Origin: Styela clava
Taxonomy: Eukaryota
Direction of reading: 5' to 3'
DNA length: 64,000 nucleotides
NCBI RefSeq assembly: GCF_964204865.1
Contig: NC_135254.1
Location: 21,318,199 to 21,382,198 of the forward strand
In this document: positions 39,001 to 54,000 of the stretch, one piece after another
How positions within the stretch are numbered: position 1 is the first letter of the stretch
How the letters are laid out: each line of letters opens with the position of its first letter
Position numbers: made by a program

Positions 39001-42000
39001 CTCTGCAACGAAAATCTTCTTGCGTAACGTTTAAAGCTTTGGTGCCCGTTCGAGACATGCCTGCGAGGTTGTTATCGGTCGACCAAAGATCAAAATGAGT
39101 TGCGGAGCACGATCAGAATATCATGCCCATCAACGTGATATTTTACTAAAGTTTTAATTAATTGAATGGAAATCTTTTTCCGCTTCATGGCATATATTGT
39201 GATTTTCATTGTGTAATATTTAATAACTGTGTTGTTTAGAGGAGCATTCAATTTCCCACCTGAAACCTCCAGATTTCCCACTTCCCACCGGTTGGGAACC
39301 ACTTTGGTGTTTTCCTTTGTGTTACAACGGTGCAACGTCTATGCACTACAATATTGTCATTTGTACAATTGTAGGCTATTTTTGACCATACTACAGCATC
39401 GCACGCTCACAAACATACGTTGTAGCTCATATTTTTCCCTAATGGTTCCGCAGATAGCTGTTGAAACAATTTAAAAATATATATTTTTTTTTTTGGCGGC
39501 CATAATACAAACGTAAACGTGGGTGAATGCGCGCCTAATTGGATGTCAACTGGAATTCCAGCCCACCACCTTGCGTCAATTCTGGGCGGCTATTTAGAAA
39601 TTCTTACATGTCAATATGAAAAATAAAAAGCTTCGGCTTTCCCATAATTCCAGATATTTCTAGCCTCAAATTTACTATGTCGCGTGCGCAAATGGTAGAG
39701 AGATGCCACTCGTCGTCTTCTATACAATGCTTGCAATTTAGTAGTTCATGTAAATGTTCTAGAACGCTCCATGCTTTCCATTGCTCCCTTTTTGGAAAAA
39801 GGATTGCACGTAATAAACTCGATTTAAAAGAGGTATTGATGAGATTCCCCCTTGGGTTGATCCTACGCATGTTTCGTATTTATACACGCGAATCGAAAAC
39901 TTAAAAATATTGCGCTAACGCATATTTTATTGTGTACCACATGTATACCAAAAATTTTATTGTGTACCACATGTATACCAAAAAGGATAGATAGTTTGAA
40001 GGCAACTGGCGAATCATTGTTATAAGCTATCAATAGTTTTTAACTTGCATTATATTATCTGGATAACTGTCGTCGTTTTTATTAGCAGTGTTTATAATAC
40101 ACACTAGTGATATTGTTACCTATCTAACCTTGAATTTCAACTAGTTAAGGTATGTAGTGAGATTTATAGGGGTAAAAGTACAAACAAAGGTGTAAATTAG
40201 TAAAAACAGGATGGATTATAGACTCGGTAAGAACGACGTGAACTCGAAATCGAATCCGAGTCCAAAAAATCCCTGGATCCGACCCGAATCCCGGCCCATC
40301 CCTAATAATTAGTAACCTTGCAGGAACTATATTATACTATCTACAACCCTTATACCACCACTCGAACATAAGACCATGCATGTATGATAAGGACATCACA
40401 GCTAGAAAAAGGTAAAAACACGAGCGTGAAGTGATAGAATGTGCGCGGTTATTTCAAGAAAATATCATCCGGGTATGACAGCTACCTATATATTTAAAAA
40501 ATATATACTCATGCATGTCACAATACCATTTCTTTGGTGCTGTACTAGGTCTGGCCAAGTCATAGCAAGATATAACAATATTATTTTAGCTGTTCAACAT
40601 TTTCATTAAAACAATAATGTGCAAGTGTGGAGTGTCTCAAGTTTTTGTCATCGAATACCACCAGTAGTAATTTTTAATATTTGGAAACTAAATGTTGAAG
40701 ATCAGTGGCGTAGCGAGACTCTCGTTTCCCCGAAACGCTTTTTTTTTTATTTTGTTAAAAAGCATAACATGTCGCTATTAATAGGCAATGGTAACCTAAA
40801 ATTTGCCGTTTATCTTGGTTAGGCCTACTTTAATTTTTTTCATACGTGCTCCCTCTTCTGCCCTTTTTCTGCGTTTCTATGCATCACCGAGAGGTTTTGC
40901 TTTGCTTTCGACATCATTCTGACAGCCTTCGTAATTTCGCCGGTGCGATCGAACCACAAGACGCCGAAAATCGACGACTCCCTGGCATTGTTACGTAACA
41001 AAAAATTATTTGAGCAGAACTAACATCTACAGGGATGGCGAACCACTGACCCGCGGGTCACAAAGTGACCCACGTCGTTTTATTTGTGACCCACCAAGGC
41101 ACGAATGAAATGAAAAAATGCTAACATATCAGTGCTAAAAATTGATAAAACCGGGCTTAAATTATTAACTACTATAAACTATAACTAATATAATGTACCG
41201 TCAGTTGGGCAGTCAAGGCTGCGATCGCTCATATTCGAATTTATATTTCCGGGCCGGTATGATAATTTTCAAAACCCCTAATTTTGGACGCATGTCTGCA
41301 CCGCTTTGTACCGTTATTCAGCTATTGGCTCTGACATCGTTTATTATATAACAATGCAATTGATCTGGTAATTTTTCGCAACGCCTCGTCTCTTTTGGAA
41401 GTGCACCTGCATGCTTTTTTAGGGGTAATACGAGAACTAGATGCTACTTTGCATTTTATTAGTTTCTCATCTACAATGCCGCTGTAAAAACAAAATATTC
41501 CAGATTTGAAATAAAAACCTAGAAATCCAAAATACCAATGGGGCAGTGTAAAAGTGCCTTAATGTGGTTGGAAGCAGATCGAAAAATATAACACTATCAG
41601 AGTGGAATTCCCTCTAAACTATTTGGTACCGTAAATTAATTTTCCCCGTCATCCTAAACGTTTTTGGTAATTAATATGCGTGTTTTCGTACTCTCATTTC
41701 ATATAATCGAGTGCCATAAAAAGTCCCTAATGGAAATGCTGCATAATCCCAAAACTACACCAACACCAACAGAAGCTTACAAGATTTGTTACAGAAGTTT
41801 CTTATAGATACAAACATTGATTAAATATCTGTGACCCACTCTCTTCTGTTCCGCGATAAAAATATAATTTTTGACCCATTCATCGGAAAAGGTTCGCCAT
41901 CCCTGATCTATAAGATGTGCATTACTGGTTTTGCAGTACAACTTTTGGTTTTCCGACTGCTCGGGCCCTTTGCGGGACAACACTAAAAGGCTGAAGGAAG

Positions 42001-51000: not shown

Positions 51001-54000
51001 AGAAATTTCATCCACTTCTTACTTTTAGTGTTCAGCTTTTAAGTGACTTCAACCACTTCATTATTCGTCGGAAAAAATTTCATCCACTTCTTCCTTTTAG
51101 TGTTCAGCTTTTTAGTGACTTCAACCACCTCATTATTCGTCGGAAAAAAATTCATCAGGTTTTTAGTGACTTCAACCACCTAACTACCCGTCGGAAGAAA
51201 TTTCATCCACTTCTTCCTTTTAGTGTTCATCTTTTTAGTGACTTCAACCACCTCATTATTCGTCGGAAAAAATTTCATCCACTTCTTCCTTTTAGTGTTC
51301 AGCTTTCTAGTGACTTCAGCCACCTAACTACCCGTCGGAAGAAATTTTATCCACTTCTTCCTTTTAGTGTTCAGCTTTTTAGTGACTTCAGCCACCTAAC
51401 TACCCGTCGGAAGAAATTCCATCCACTTCTTCCTTTTAGTGTTCATCTTTTTAGTGACTTCAACCACCTCATTATTCGCCGGAAGAAATTTCATCCACTT
51501 CTTCCTTTTAGTGTTCAGCTTTTTAGTGACTTCAACCACCTCATTATTCGTCGGAAAAAATTTCATCCACTTCTTCCTTTTAGTGTTCAGCTTTGTAGTG
51601 ACTTCAGCCACCTAACTACCCGTCGGAAGAAATTTCATCCACTTCTTCCTTTTAGTGTTCAGCTTTTTAGTGACTTCAGCCACCTAACTACCCGTCGGGA
51701 GAAATTTCATCCACTTCTTCCTTTTAGTGTTCATCTTTTTAGTGACTTCAACCACCTCATTATTCGCCGGGAGAAATTTCATCCACTTCTTCCTTTTAGT
51801 GTTCAGCCTTTTAGTGTTTTTTAATTTTTCACCTTTGGGAACACTTCAACTTCCGTTTTCCCTCCACTTCATCCGTTTCTTCCTTCAGCCTTTTAGTGCT
51901 GTCCCCCCTTTGCGCTGTGGGCCCTCCCGCGACCGCGGGGATTGCGGCCTGCGGGGGTGGATGCTACGCCACTGTTGAAGATATTACAGTTATAGCGACA
52001 ATTACAGATTTCAGAATTTACGAATTCTTAAAATACAGCGATATCGGTATTTATGTATTACTGAAAGCGCTAGGCTACCGGTTCCGGTACCGTATATCTA
52101 TATTCTGATAGGTACCGGTACCGGTAGTGCGGAAACAGGGAGATGTATTTTAAGTTAAATATTGTACGGTACGGTACCTCACCCTAACAGACGTTCCGGG
52201 TGTACAGACTTTTCCGATTATACAGTACGGCAGTTCTCCGATACTAAGAATAGATAGTACCGGTACGGTACCGGTACCGGTAACAGGGGTTACATTGAAG
52301 GGAATCTATTATAACAGTGAATGTAACCCCTTCTTTTTCGAGCCAGTTTGGGCCTCCATATTGGCACTGTGCAATAAACTAAAAGGAAGCGCCATCTAAA
52401 AGAGTCACCATTGGATTCCACGGAAAAATAATTCGATTTACCAGATAAAATTTTTTTATTGTAGTTTCGAGAGTTTTTAGCAGAAAAAGCAATTTCGGTA
52501 TTTTTGGCTGATGCACATTGCAATTGATTGAAATTTTTATCGAGACAATCCTGCCACGATGTGCCGTTATGCCAGATGCCGTCAGTCTATAAATTAAGTG
52601 TTTGTTTTATTGAACCAAATGTCGGGACATTTCCGAATAGGGCAACTGTACCCTACTGCACTATCACCTATAAATCCGCATGTATTTATAAATTATTATT
52701 TTTAAACAACTCCTAAGGCAAAGGTTAAAATATATCGTATTTTGTGGTCTAAAGTCTGAAAGTCCATGCTGCCATTGGAAAAATTCTGTATATTGGGAAA
52801 TGTTGCTTGATTTCATATTATTGCTAAAATTCAGAGAACCTATAGTGAGATAGTCTGAATTGTGTTTACTGCATACACACAATTCTGCCATTTTGTGTGG
52901 TGAGATTTGTTATATTCAGAAATAAGGATGGATATACGTTCAAAATTCTCCATGTCTGGTGTCAGACAAATGAGCTCTGATGCTTCAACATTGTTTACTA
53001 GAGCTTTGCAGGTGAGAAATAAAATTTATATTCAATTTATTTTGACCAATTTAAACGTTTTTCAACAAATCTTTGATGCAGTGCTTCTATAATTATGAAA
53101 TGATTTCATTCTTGAGAATGAAGGCCTAATGTTTACCAATCTCTTCATTGTGGACCAGCTAAAATGAACAACTACTGCTTAGTGATGTGACAAGTTCCTC
53201 GAATAGAAGTATAATTTCAAAATTTATTATACTACTGTACTCTATCCTCTGTAGGCCTATTAATAATTTGTCGAACTTGCTGACCTGTGACTTTGTTTAT
53301 ATGGAACTTTTTTCTATCAACGGTATGTTTTTTTTCCAACCAACCTTTTTGCAGTATACAGAGGAAAAACTGGGCAGTGCAGAAAAAACTGAATATGATG
53401 CAAATTTTGAAAATCTTCTCGAGCGTTATGATCGCACTAAAAACTGGACTGAAAAGTTGAAAACACAGACAGAAATATCATTACAACCGAATCCAAGTAG
53501 GTCAATGGATTTTTAGAATTTCAATATGGTTATTACTCTTGCCTAATACCTGATCACTCAAGATCTAGCAAAACTAAAGCTAAATATTTTCTATTTTTTA
53601 GATATGCGTATGGAAGATTTTGTTTACACAAAATTAGATAGAAGGCCACCTGAACGTGCAACAAATCAAGAAATATTAGGTGCTACTATGATTGAAGCAG
53701 GGAATAGTTTCGGTCCTGGTACAGCTTATGGTAAGATTTATTCTCACTTTTCAGACATATGTCATACAATAACCAGAACTAGTGGTTCTTGGTTATGTTA
53801 TCTATTTGGCATTTGCAAATAGACAGTCAGCATTTATTATTAACAGATCATGCTTGTTTGTGACATATTCCTATTCCAGCAACAAGTTCAATCTCATTGC
53901 GATCAGATATTTTTAAGAAACTTAGTTTCGATAGAACGGAGATTAGATCAGATTGGTAAAATTCCCTTTTCCAGTGAAAATTTTTTTATTTCAAGTTCAG

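What the first reader, a model, noticed from the sequence alone, without database searches (positions are those of the whole stretch)
41966..51914. A ~10-kb element bounded by a 9-bp direct duplication whose inverted arms are built from a 72-bp satellite (Foldback/MULE-like)
The three satellite arrays in this region are not independent. Array A (42055-43700, plus orientation, about 23 units) and arrays B and C (47881-48025 and 50912-51830, inverted) are the two arms of one inverted structure. The roughly 110 bp of non-array sequence outside each array is also inverted. The structure ends at GGACA(A/G)CACTAAAAGG on each side, and both ends are flanked by the same CCCTTTGC(G) in direct orientation (41966-41974 and 51906-51914), as expected for a target-site duplication. 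Drosophila Foldback elements (9-bp TSD, TIRs made of tandem repeats) and TIR-MULEs (9-bp TSD) are the known families that combine an 8-9-bp TSD with kilobase TIRs composed of tandem repeats. The interior (43.7-47.9 kb) has no recognisable transposase, so if mobile it is non-autonomous. It has accumulated secondary insertions: a 230-bp MITE, a LINE fragment, and hAT-like termini.
Basis: partly seen in the sequence, partly recalled or inferred. Interest (0 to 1): 0.8.

Follow-up and report, generated by a model that had tools for sequence, protein, structure and literature searches.

The report
Foldback-type transposon copy in sea squirt
This is one old, non-coding copy of a foldback-type "jumping gene" in what is almost certainly the sea squirt Styela clava; its two inverted ends are built from a 72-bp tandem repeat, a known kind of element that is simply undescribed in this animal group.

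Summary
A 9,932-bp element (41974-51905) has two inverted arms. Each arm is an 89-bp terminal domain followed by 72-bp tandem units: about 22 on the left and about 15 on the right.

- **Ends:** inverted homology starts abruptly at GGGACA on both sides. It abuts a perfect 8-bp direct repeat, CCCTTTGC (41966-41973 and 51906-51913), with a chance probability of about 3e-5. The 9-bp reading needs a 1-nt offset.
- **Right arm:** arrays B and C are one arm, split by a 2.9-kb insert carrying a 5'-truncated LINE reverse-transcriptase fragment. The two units flanking the insert are the only two in the window with a rare variant.
- **Coding capacity:** six-frame Pfam scans found no protein domain in the interior outside that LINE reverse-transcriptase ORF (48029-48889), which gave only a weak, sub-threshold RVT_1 match, so the copy is non-autonomous.
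- **Host:** a copia ORF in the window is 98% identical to Styela clava proteins.
- **Closest known:** the architecture matches foldback elements such as Tetris, Tm1, Muta1 derivatives and Galileo. The superfamily cannot be settled. Mutator-like/Phantom is favoured and P is possible.
- **Not tested:** no S. clava DNA outside this window was reachable, so copy number, other target-site duplications and empty sites are untested.

Verdict: a real but ordinary feature, a new member of a known kind.

The parts
41966..41973 (.). Left copy of the flanking direct repeat CCCTTTGC (putative target-site duplication). G at 41974 could extend it to 9 bp.
   Evidence: Read directly. The same 8-mer lies at 51906-51913. 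The chance of an 8-mer match at a fixed site is about 3e-5.
41974..42062 (+). Left terminal domain, 89 bp. It starts GGGACAACACTAAAAGG. Positions 8-63 are a diverged copy of the 72-bp unit.
   Evidence: It aligns with the reverse complement of 51817-51905 with 4 mismatches, all A/G transitions, and flank identity falls to chance beyond it. Similarity to the unit scores 43, against -4 +/- 6.7 (maximum 20) for shuffles.
42063..43750 (+). Left arm array: 22 units of 72 bp (one of them 71 bp) plus a degenerate tail. Unit types run a x17, b, a x3, c.
   Evidence: Mean identity between units within this arm is 93.9%.
43751..47876 (.). Middle domain, about 4.1 kb, AT-rich, not palindromic, with no detectable coding capacity.
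   Evidence: Six-frame Pfam scan of 43680-47890 gave 0 families at E<=1. Inverted homology between the arms stops at the innermost units.
45910..46157 (.). MITE-like 248-bp inverted-repeat insert inside the middle domain.
   Evidence: Arms 45910-45983 and 46084-46157 are 74 nt and 82% complementary. A related fragment lies at 3358-3440. No target-site duplication was resolved.
47877..48024 (-).
   Evidence: The c variant GACGG[C/G]TGGTGAGGTGG is also the innermost full unit of the left arm (43575). The outermost unit here carries the rare CACTAAATGGAAGAAG variant.
48025..50912 (+). Nested 2.9-kb insertion that splits the right arm. It contains a 5'-truncated LINE (ORF 48029-48889 with an FADD reverse-transcriptase motif), a long AT-rich 3' part and a (TC)9 tail at 50898-50915.
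   Evidence: Weak RVT_1 match at E=0.0048, profile positions 151-194 of 205. Unit phase is nearly continuous across the insert: 9-12 bp of the unit are missing, and an 11-bp TTTTTAGTGAC is duplicated at 48012-48033. No Pfam domain in 48880-50915.
50913..51816 (-).
   Evidence: The innermost unit carries the same rare CACTAAATGGAAGAAG variant as array B. These are the only two occurrences in the window.
51817..51905 (-). Right terminal domain, 89 bp. Its reverse complement starts GGGACAGCACTAAAAGG.
51906..51913 (.). Right copy of the flanking direct repeat CCCTTTGC, followed by G at 51914.

Best explanation
This is a single, old, non-autonomous insertion of a foldback-type cut-and-paste DNA transposon in the genome of the ascidian Styela clava or a very close relative. 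Four steps are involved; the first is shown and the rest are inferred.

1. Structure (shown). The element runs: 8-bp duplication, 89-bp terminal domain, n x 72-bp units, non-coding middle domain, n x 72-bp units inverted, 89-bp terminal domain inverted, 8-bp duplication.
2. Mobilisation (inferred). A transposase supplied in trans by an autonomous relative recognised the GGGACA terminus and the motif CACTAAAARG. That motif occurs once in each terminal domain and twice per 72-bp unit. The transposase cut the element out of a donor site and joined it to a target cut with an 8-nt (possibly 9-nt) stagger. Repair of that stagger produced the CCCTTTGC duplication.
3. Origin of the array (inferred). 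The 72-bp array arose by tandem amplification of part of the terminal domain. This multiplies binding sites, as shown experimentally for Muta1 subterminal repeats and proposed for Tetris and Galileo.
4. Later history (inferred). After insertion, unequal exchange changed unit number and variant composition independently in the two arms. The arms drifted to about 92% identity. A LINE then inserted into the right arm.

The most likely superfamily is Mutator-like (Phantom/Foldback branch). This is a preference based on duplication length, TIR architecture and the GGG terminus. It is not a demonstrated membership.
For: - Inverted homology begins abruptly at 41974 and 51905 and is immediately flanked by identical CCCTTTGC. 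The chance of such a match is about 3e-5.
- The terminal 30-mer and all 64 CACTAAAARG motifs in the 64-kb window lie inside the element. They are on the plus strand in the left arm and the minus strand in the right arm.
- Both arms share the same outer domain and the same innermost c-type unit, but differ in unit number and variant order. That is expected if a symmetric inverted repeat later evolved by unequal exchange.
- Arrays B and C are contiguous in phase. They uniquely share a rare variant in the two units flanking the 2.9-kb LINE-bearing insert.
- The terminal domain is a diverged unit.
- No protein domain was found in any frame of the interior outside the LINE reverse-transcriptase ORF (48029-48889), which itself gives only a weak RVT_1 match.
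- The host was identified through a copia ORF 98% identical to S. clava proteins.
- Literature support:
  - Tetris has the same domain plan, 8-9(10)-bp duplications, no ORF, and units sharing a stretch with the final domain (PMC4079207).
  - The Aedes Muta families have 8-9-bp duplications and subterminal tandem repeats. More repeats increase transposase binding and excision, and unequal repeat numbers at the two ends are tolerated. The Muta1 terminus is GGGTCTACCC (PMC5225508; PMC5499845).
  - Tm1 has composite tandem-repeat TIRs and 9-bp duplications (PMC3169594).
  - A Phantom-group Mutator-like element is reported from the tunicate Ciona savignyi (PMC6446971).
Against: - Only one copy could be examined. 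No other copy, empty site or autonomous partner could be retrieved, so mobility rests on one duplication.
- With a single copy, the duplication length (8 or 9 bp) is ambiguous by one base.
- No transposase remnant is present, so the superfamily cannot be tested.
- The 72-bp unit is far longer than the 9-15-bp subterminal repeats of Muta elements. It is closer in scale to Galileo, a P-superfamily element, and to Tetris, which is unclassified.
- The role of CACTAAAARG as a binding site is pure inference.
Confidence: 0.75

Rival explanations
1. Same kind of object, a non-autonomous foldback-type transposon, but belonging to the P superfamily and resembling Galileo. It would be mobilised by a THAP-domain P-type transposase that binds sites repeated in the long inverted repeats.
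For: The most parsimonious duplication is 8 bp, which is the P-element hallmark, and P-family MITEs give 8-9 bp (PMC3698922). Galileo has kilobase TIRs with internal tandem repeats that carry extra transposase-binding sites (PMC4079207 citing Marzo 2013; PMC3573991 abstract). P-like elements are reported in the ascidian Ciona intestinalis (PMC3698922 citing Kimbacher 2009).
Against: No THAP or P-transposase remnant was found in the element. Most foldback elements that have been classified fall in the Mutator superfamily (PMC4079207). The GGG terminus resembles Muta1's GGGTCTACCC more than the CA-initial P-type termini I recall from memory; I did not test that recollection.
Confidence: 0.18
2. 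Not a transposon. A local rearrangement of a pre-existing 72-bp satellite block, either an inversion with a breakpoint inside the array or an inverted segmental duplication, produced two oppositely oriented arrays. The flanking 8-mer would then be coincidence or microhomology.
For: Only one copy was seen, and no other copy or empty site was available. Satellite arrays are prone to rearrangement, which is general knowledge rather than a test.
Against: An inversion with a breakpoint in an array would leave one terminal domain, not two. Here both outer ends carry the same 89-bp non-array domain, and it stops at exactly the same base on each side. An inverted duplication does not create direct repeats abutting both ends, and the chance of the 8-mer is about 3e-5. 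The arms also share the same innermost variant unit, so both are complete from end to end. The flanks have no similarity to the termini.
Confidence: 0.05
3. Assembly artefact: a chimeric or palindromic long read, or a mis-join, created an apparent inverted repeat.
For: Foldback chimeras are a known long-read artefact, and satellite arrays are hard to assemble. This is general knowledge rather than a test.
Against: The arms are only about 92% identical, with different unit numbers and variant orders. The centre is a 4.1-kb asymmetric unique segment. One arm alone carries a LINE insertion. A palindromic artefact would be near-perfectly symmetric about its centre.
Confidence: 0.02

Closest known systems
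Tetris (Drosophila virilis foldback transposon; PMC4079207)
   Same: The domain plan is the same: a terminal 'final domain', an outer domain of a variable number of tandem repeats, and a middle domain with no coding capacity. Tetris has 8-9(10)-bp target-site duplications. Its tandem unit shares a stretch with the terminal domain. No autonomous partner is known.
   Different: The unit is 72 bp rather than about 220 bp, with no sequence relationship. The host is an ascidian, not a fly. Tetris is documented from several copies and its repeats have expanded into satellite arrays; neither could be examined here.
Muta1-Muta14 and their non-autonomous derivatives (Aedes aegypti Mutator-like elements, 'type 2 foldback'; PMC5225508, PMC5499845)
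   Same: They have 8- or 9-bp duplications and TIRs made of a terminal motif plus subterminal tandem repeats. Unequal repeat numbers at the two ends are tolerated. The terminus begins GGG (GGGTCTACCC in Muta1, GGGACAACAC here). Derivatives carry unrelated internal sequence.
   Different: Muta TIRs are about 145 bp with 9-15-bp repeats. Here the arms are 1.1-1.7 kb with 72-bp units. Muta1 has a known DDE transposase and demonstrated transposition. No transposase is linked to this element.
Drosophila Foldback (FB/FB4) and Tm1 of Meloidogyne (PMC3169594)
   Same: They have long composite inverted repeats built from tandem repeats, in variable numbers between arms and between copies. Duplications are around 9 bp. 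Many copies lack coding capacity. They are assigned to the Mutator/Phantom lineage.
   Different: Their repeat units are much shorter (about 14 bp in Tm1). Tm1 has asymmetric 7-bp terminal motifs outside the inverted repeat, whereas the inverted repeat here runs to the last base. There is no sequence similarity, and membership in the transposase lineage is untestable for this copy.
Galileo (P superfamily, Drosophila; PMC3573991, PMC4168063)
   Same: It has kilobase-scale TIRs containing tandem repeats of about 100 bp or more, striking structural variation between arms, and many non-autonomous copies.
   Different: Galileo makes 7-bp duplications (PMC3698922), against 8 or 9 bp here. It encodes a THAP-type transposase, and no trace of one is present here.

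Membership tests
Foldback-type elements (structural class) | Long terminal inverted repeats composed largely of tandem repeats, with a distinct outermost terminal domain | tested here: met
   Arms run 41974-43750 and 47877-48024 plus 50913-51905. Each has an 89-bp terminal domain followed by 72-bp units.
Foldback-type elements (structural class) | Middle domain of variable, usually non-coding sequence between the arms | tested here: met
   The 4.1-kb asymmetric centre gave no Pfam hit in six frames.
Foldback-type elements (structural class) | Target-site duplication flanking the complete element (8-10 bp in Mutator-type foldbacks) | tested here: met
   CCCTTTGC abuts both ends, as 8 bp or as 9 bp with a 1-nt offset.
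Foldback-type elements (structural class) | A dispersed multi-copy family whose copies differ in arm length and each have their own duplications | not testable with these tools
   There is no second copy in the 64-kb window. No S. clava DNA or satellite-derived ORFs were found in any searchable collection.
Mutator-like elements (MULE; Phantom/Foldback branch) | Mutator-type DDE transposase encoded by the element or by an autonomous relative with the same termini | tested here: not met
   No MULE, Transposase_mut, SWIM or FLYWCH domain, nor any other domain, was found in six frames of 43680-47890 and 48880-50915; the remaining stretch, ORF 48029-48889, gave only a weak RVT_1 match. The test fails for this copy. 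An autonomous partner elsewhere in the genome could not be searched for.
Mutator-like elements (MULE; Phantom/Foldback branch) | 8-10-bp target-site duplication and TIRs longer than 100 bp (PMC5225508) | tested here: met
   The duplication is 8 or 9 bp and the TIRs exceed 1 kb.
P superfamily (P, 1360, Galileo) | THAP-domain P-type transposase | tested here: not met
   No THAP or Tnp_P_element hit was found in the six-frame scans, nor in the LINE reverse-transcriptase ORF 48029-48889. An autonomous partner could not be searched for.
P superfamily (P, 1360, Galileo) | 7-8-bp (occasionally 9-bp) target-site duplication (PMC3698922) | tested here: met
   The perfect 8-mer fits.
hAT superfamily | 8-bp duplication with short (about 10-25 bp) TIRs beginning YARNG, and a hAT dimerisation domain | tested here: not met
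   The duplication length fits. However, the terminus is GGGACA, the TIRs are kilobase-long tandem arrays, and no hAT domain was found. The YARNG rule is from my own knowledge.
CACTA / En-Spm superfamily | Termini begin CACTA and are flanked by a 3-bp duplication | tested here: not met
   CACTAAAAGG starts 7 nt inside the end. Inverted homology continues outward through GGGACA[A/G]. The 3 nt outside the CACTA motif are CAA on one side and CTG on the other. The CACTA rule is from my own knowledge.

The most novel reading that the evidence does not exclude
This copy represents the first foldback-type transposon family recognised in a tunicate, and so in a chordate. It would be driven by a Phantom/Mutator-like transposase, a superfamily reported as nearly absent from chordates (PMC6446971). 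Its 72-bp TIR units might also be the seed of a dispersed or expanded 72-bp satellite in Styela clava, as Tetris was for a D. virilis satellite.
Probability: 0.3. Interest if true: 0.45.

Novelty: new member of a known kind. Interest (0 to 1): 0.3.

Why it matters
Foldback elements drive inversions and other rearrangements in flies, and they can seed satellite DNA. Mutator-like elements are reported to be almost absent from chordates: the survey I read lists a single Ciona savignyi sequence (PMC6446971). A documented foldback family in an invasive ascidian would extend the host range of this architecture. It would also give a concrete candidate source for the 72-bp tandem arrays and for structural variation in Styela genomes.

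As it stands, this is one decayed copy with textbook architecture. It is useful for repeat annotation, where it explains three 'satellite' arrays, several spurious ORFs of up to 198 aa and a nested LINE. It does not change understanding of transposons.

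Tried and rejected
**Searches for other copies (all negative)**
- Exact look-ups of window ORFs: the satellite ORF and the copia integrase ORF.
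- Homology searches with both open frames of the 72-bp unit plus the terminal domain, against 5.8 billion proteins.
- A filter-free HMMER search of 1.84 billion representatives with the ORF that spans the right terminus. The single hit, P0121, is a bacterial repeat protein that matches only the flank-encoded residues 65-80, summed over 11 repeats. I judged it spurious.
- Exact DNA scans with the satellite core and the terminal domain in the metagenome, viral and prokaryotic genome collections.
- Look-ups of the two S. clava copia proteins to fetch more S. clava DNA; neither was on record.
- A full-text search for the monomer and terminal k-mers: 0 papers.

**Searches for coding capacity**
- Six-frame Pfam scans at E<=1 of 43680-47890 and 48880-50915 found nothing. 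A direct DNA-reference submission failed because of stop codons.

**Searches for RNA genes**
- An Rfam scan at gathering thresholds and a tRNA scan of the whole window found nothing.

**Ideas tested and rejected**
- A CACTA-type terminus with a 3-bp duplication: rejected because the inverted homology extends 7 nt further out and the 3-mers differ.
- The insertion site as a degenerate older terminus of the same element: local alignment of the termini to the reconstructed empty site is no better than shuffles.
- hAT-like nested elements in the interior: no pairs found.
- The 24-codon open frames on both strands of the unit as real coding sequence: no homologs were found. My own rough estimate is that about one open frame in six is expected by chance for a 72-bp unit.
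- Assembly palindrome: the arms are too diverged and too asymmetric.

Full report

Yes. Tandem Repeats Finder reports a 72-bp array at 42063-43677 (22.4 copies, 94% matches). It reports the same unit in inverted orientation at 47887-48024 (1.9 copies) and at 50913-51816.

A BLAST of the left arm against the whole 64-kb window hits only 47877-48024 and 50913-51905, both on the minus strand. The longest in-register inverted pair that includes the non-array ends is 41974-42630 against 51249-51905, at 92%.

The proposed terminal 30-mer occurs exactly twice, once at each end and in opposite orientation, with none expected by chance.

Reading the ends directly:
- Left: ...CTCGGG CCCTTTGC | GGGACAACACTAAAAGG...
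- Right: ...CCTTTTAGTGCTGTCCC | CCCTTTGC GCTGTGGG...

Inverted homology switches on abruptly at 41974 and 51905, and flank identity outside it is at chance level. The 8-mer CCCTTTGC (41966-41973 and 51906-51913) abuts the element on both sides. Given the window's base composition, an 8-mer match at fixed positions has a probability of about 3e-5.

It requires the left terminus to be GGACA and the right terminus GGGACA, a 1-nt offset. The 8-bp reading with a perfect GGGACA inverted repeat is simpler. A single copy cannot decide between them.

**2. Anatomy**

Each arm begins with an 89-bp non-array terminal domain, not the roughly 110 bp stated. The two copies differ by four A/G transitions. Positions 8-63 of this domain are themselves a diverged 72-bp unit that lacks the second CACTAAAA. 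The alignment scores 43, against -4 +/- 6.7 (maximum 20) for shuffles.

The unit contains an internal 15-bp subrepeat, CACTAAAAAGCTGAA / CACTAAAAGGAAGAA. As a result the 10-mer CACTAAAARG occurs 64 times in the window. Every occurrence is inside the element, on the plus strand in the left arm and the minus strand in the right arm.

Arm composition:

| Arm | Units, outer to inner | Mean identity between units |
|---|---|---|
| Left | 22 units: a x17, b, a x3, c, then a degenerate tail | 93.9% |
| Right | a b b a a b b a b a(51 bp) a a, partial unit, [2.9-kb insert], c, last unit | 90.0% |

Identity between units of different arms is 91.2%. Both arms therefore share the same outer domain and the same rare innermost c variant (GACGG[C/G]TGGTGAGGTGG). 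They differ in unit number and variant order. Inverted homology stops at the innermost units, and the 4.1-kb centre is asymmetric.

**3. Arrays B and C are one arm**

The unit phase is nearly continuous across 48025-50912. Between 9 and 12 bp of a unit are missing, and an 11-bp TTTTTAGTGAC is duplicated at the 5' junction. The rare variant CACTAAATGGAAGAAG occurs only twice in the window, in precisely the two units that flank the insert.

The insert starts with a 5'-truncated reverse-transcriptase ORF (48029-48889). It has an FADD motif and a weak RVT_1 match to the C-terminal part of the profile. The insert ends in a (TC)9 tail.

Removing the insert gives an original element of about 7.0 kb, with arms of about 1.7 kb and 1.1 kb.

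**4. Coding capacity and other contents**

- Six-frame Pfam scans of 43680-47890 and 48880-50915 found nothing at E<=1. Outside the LINE reverse-transcriptase ORF (48029-48889), which gave only a weak, sub-threshold RVT_1 match, the interior has no detectable protein domain, so this copy is non-autonomous.
- A 248-bp MITE-like inverted repeat lies at 45910-46157. A related fragment lies at 3358-3440.
- The 'hAT-like termini' could not be reproduced.
- The 72-bp unit is open in one frame on each strand, which yields ORFs of up to 198 aa. None has any homolog.

**5. Host**

The copia RT/RNase H ORF at 8540-10189 is 98% identical to two Styela clava RefSeq proteins, and the next best hits are at most 52% identical. 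The window has 35% GC and a CpG observed/expected ratio of 0.93. It is therefore from S. clava or a very close relative.

**6. What it is and how it works**

The combination is the signature of a cut-and-paste insertion with foldback architecture:
- two complete, mirror-image arms, each with a unique terminal domain;
- homology that ends at the same base on both sides;
- an abutting direct duplication.

That structure is shown. The following steps are inferred:
- A trans-acting transposase recognised the GGGACA terminus and the reiterated CACTAAAARG motif.
- Integration used an 8-nt (or 9-nt) staggered target cut.
- The array arose by amplification of terminal-domain sequence and multiplied binding sites.
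- Unequal exchange later remodelled each arm independently.
- A LINE then inserted into the right arm.

The literature supports each inference by analogy.
- For Muta1, adding subterminal repeats increases transposase binding, cleavage and excision. Elements with unequal repeat numbers at the two ends still transpose (PMC5499845).
- Tetris units share a stretch with the terminal domain (PMC4079207).

The 4.5% divergence of the terminal domains and the nested LINE indicate an old copy. By contrast, the copia element in the same window has 100% identical LTRs.

**7. Alternatives**

- *Inversion with a breakpoint inside a satellite array.* This would leave one terminal domain, not two.
- *Inverted duplication.* This gives no abutting direct repeat.
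- *Palindromic assembly artefact.* This would be symmetric. Here the arms differ in length, variant order and a LINE insertion.
- *Insertion into an older copy of itself.* The flanks do not resemble the termini.
- *CACTA reading.* This fails because homology extends 7 nt beyond the CACTA motif and the 3-mers outside it differ.

**8. Comparison with known families**

The architecture matches foldback elements.

| Known element | Repeat and duplication features | Source |
|---|---|---|
| Tetris | Same domain plan, 8-10-bp duplications, no ORF | PMC4079207 |
| Tm1 | 14-bp repeats, 9-bp duplications | PMC3169594 |
| Muta families | 8-9-bp duplications, subterminal repeats, terminus GGGTCTACCC | PMC5225508, PMC5499845 |
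| Galileo (P superfamily) | Kilobase TIRs with internal tandem repeats, 7-bp duplications | PMC3573991, PMC3698922 |

Most classified foldbacks are Mutator-like (PMC4079207). A Phantom-group Mutator-like element is known from Ciona savignyi (PMC6446971). P-like elements also occur in Ciona (PMC3698922).

The defining feature of any superfamily is the transposase, and it is absent from this copy. I therefore file the element structurally as foldback-type. I rate Mutator-like as more likely than P, without claiming membership in either.

**9. What could not be done**

All of these need the rest of the S. clava genome, which none of the collections holds. No open-access paper contains the unit or terminal sequences. 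None of the listed hits of a combined search pairs 'foldback' with tunicate terms.

**10. Verdict**

This is a real feature with a largely correct structural interpretation. It is a new member of a known kind. Interest is modest. It would rise if genome-wide analysis shows a family in a chordate lineage where Mutator-like and foldback elements are barely documented.

Noticed in passing
window 8314-12425 (minus strand): An apparently young, complete Ty1/copia LTR retrotransposon. Its 197-bp LTRs at 8314-8510 and 12229-12425 are 100% identical. It has gag (11652-12197), integrase (10234-11667) and RT/RNase H (8540-10189) ORFs. The RT ORF is 98% identical to two Styela clava 'uncharacterized protein' RefSeq entries, so those annotations are transposon-derived.
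   Followed up: partly
window 25248-25862 (+): A 204-aa ORF matches the RTP801/DDIT4 C-terminal domain at 26.9 bits, just below Pfam's cut-off of 27. It is possibly an exon of a host DDIT4-like gene about 16 kb upstream of the element.
   Followed up: no
window 51906-52005: The 100 bp immediately to the right of the element are 60% GC with 9 CpGs, in a window that is 35% GC overall. The reconstructed empty site contains GGGCCC...GGGCCC. The insertion may have landed in a small GC-rich island. Its nature is unknown: there is no Rfam or tRNA hit and no other copy in the window.
   Followed up: partly
window 45910-46157 and 3358-3440: A MITE-like 248-bp element with 74-nt inverted arms starting GGTACTCC lies inside the middle domain. 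A related fragment, 84% identical over 83 bp, lies about 42 kb away. No target-site duplication or family was resolved.
   Followed up: partly
window 47139-47367: Three copies of an approximately 85-bp unit lie in the middle domain, two direct (47142-47314) and one inverted (47307-47367). The origin is unknown.
   Followed up: no
window 42055-43771 and 51396-51978: The 72-bp unit equals 24 codons and is free of stop codons in one frame on each strand. This produces spurious ORFs of 70-198 aa with no homolog anywhere. Automatic gene callers could mis-annotate them.
   Followed up: yes
window 31296-31405: A short complex tandem repeat built on GGGTGCAAATGT, with periods of 16, 30 and 46 bp.
   Followed up: no
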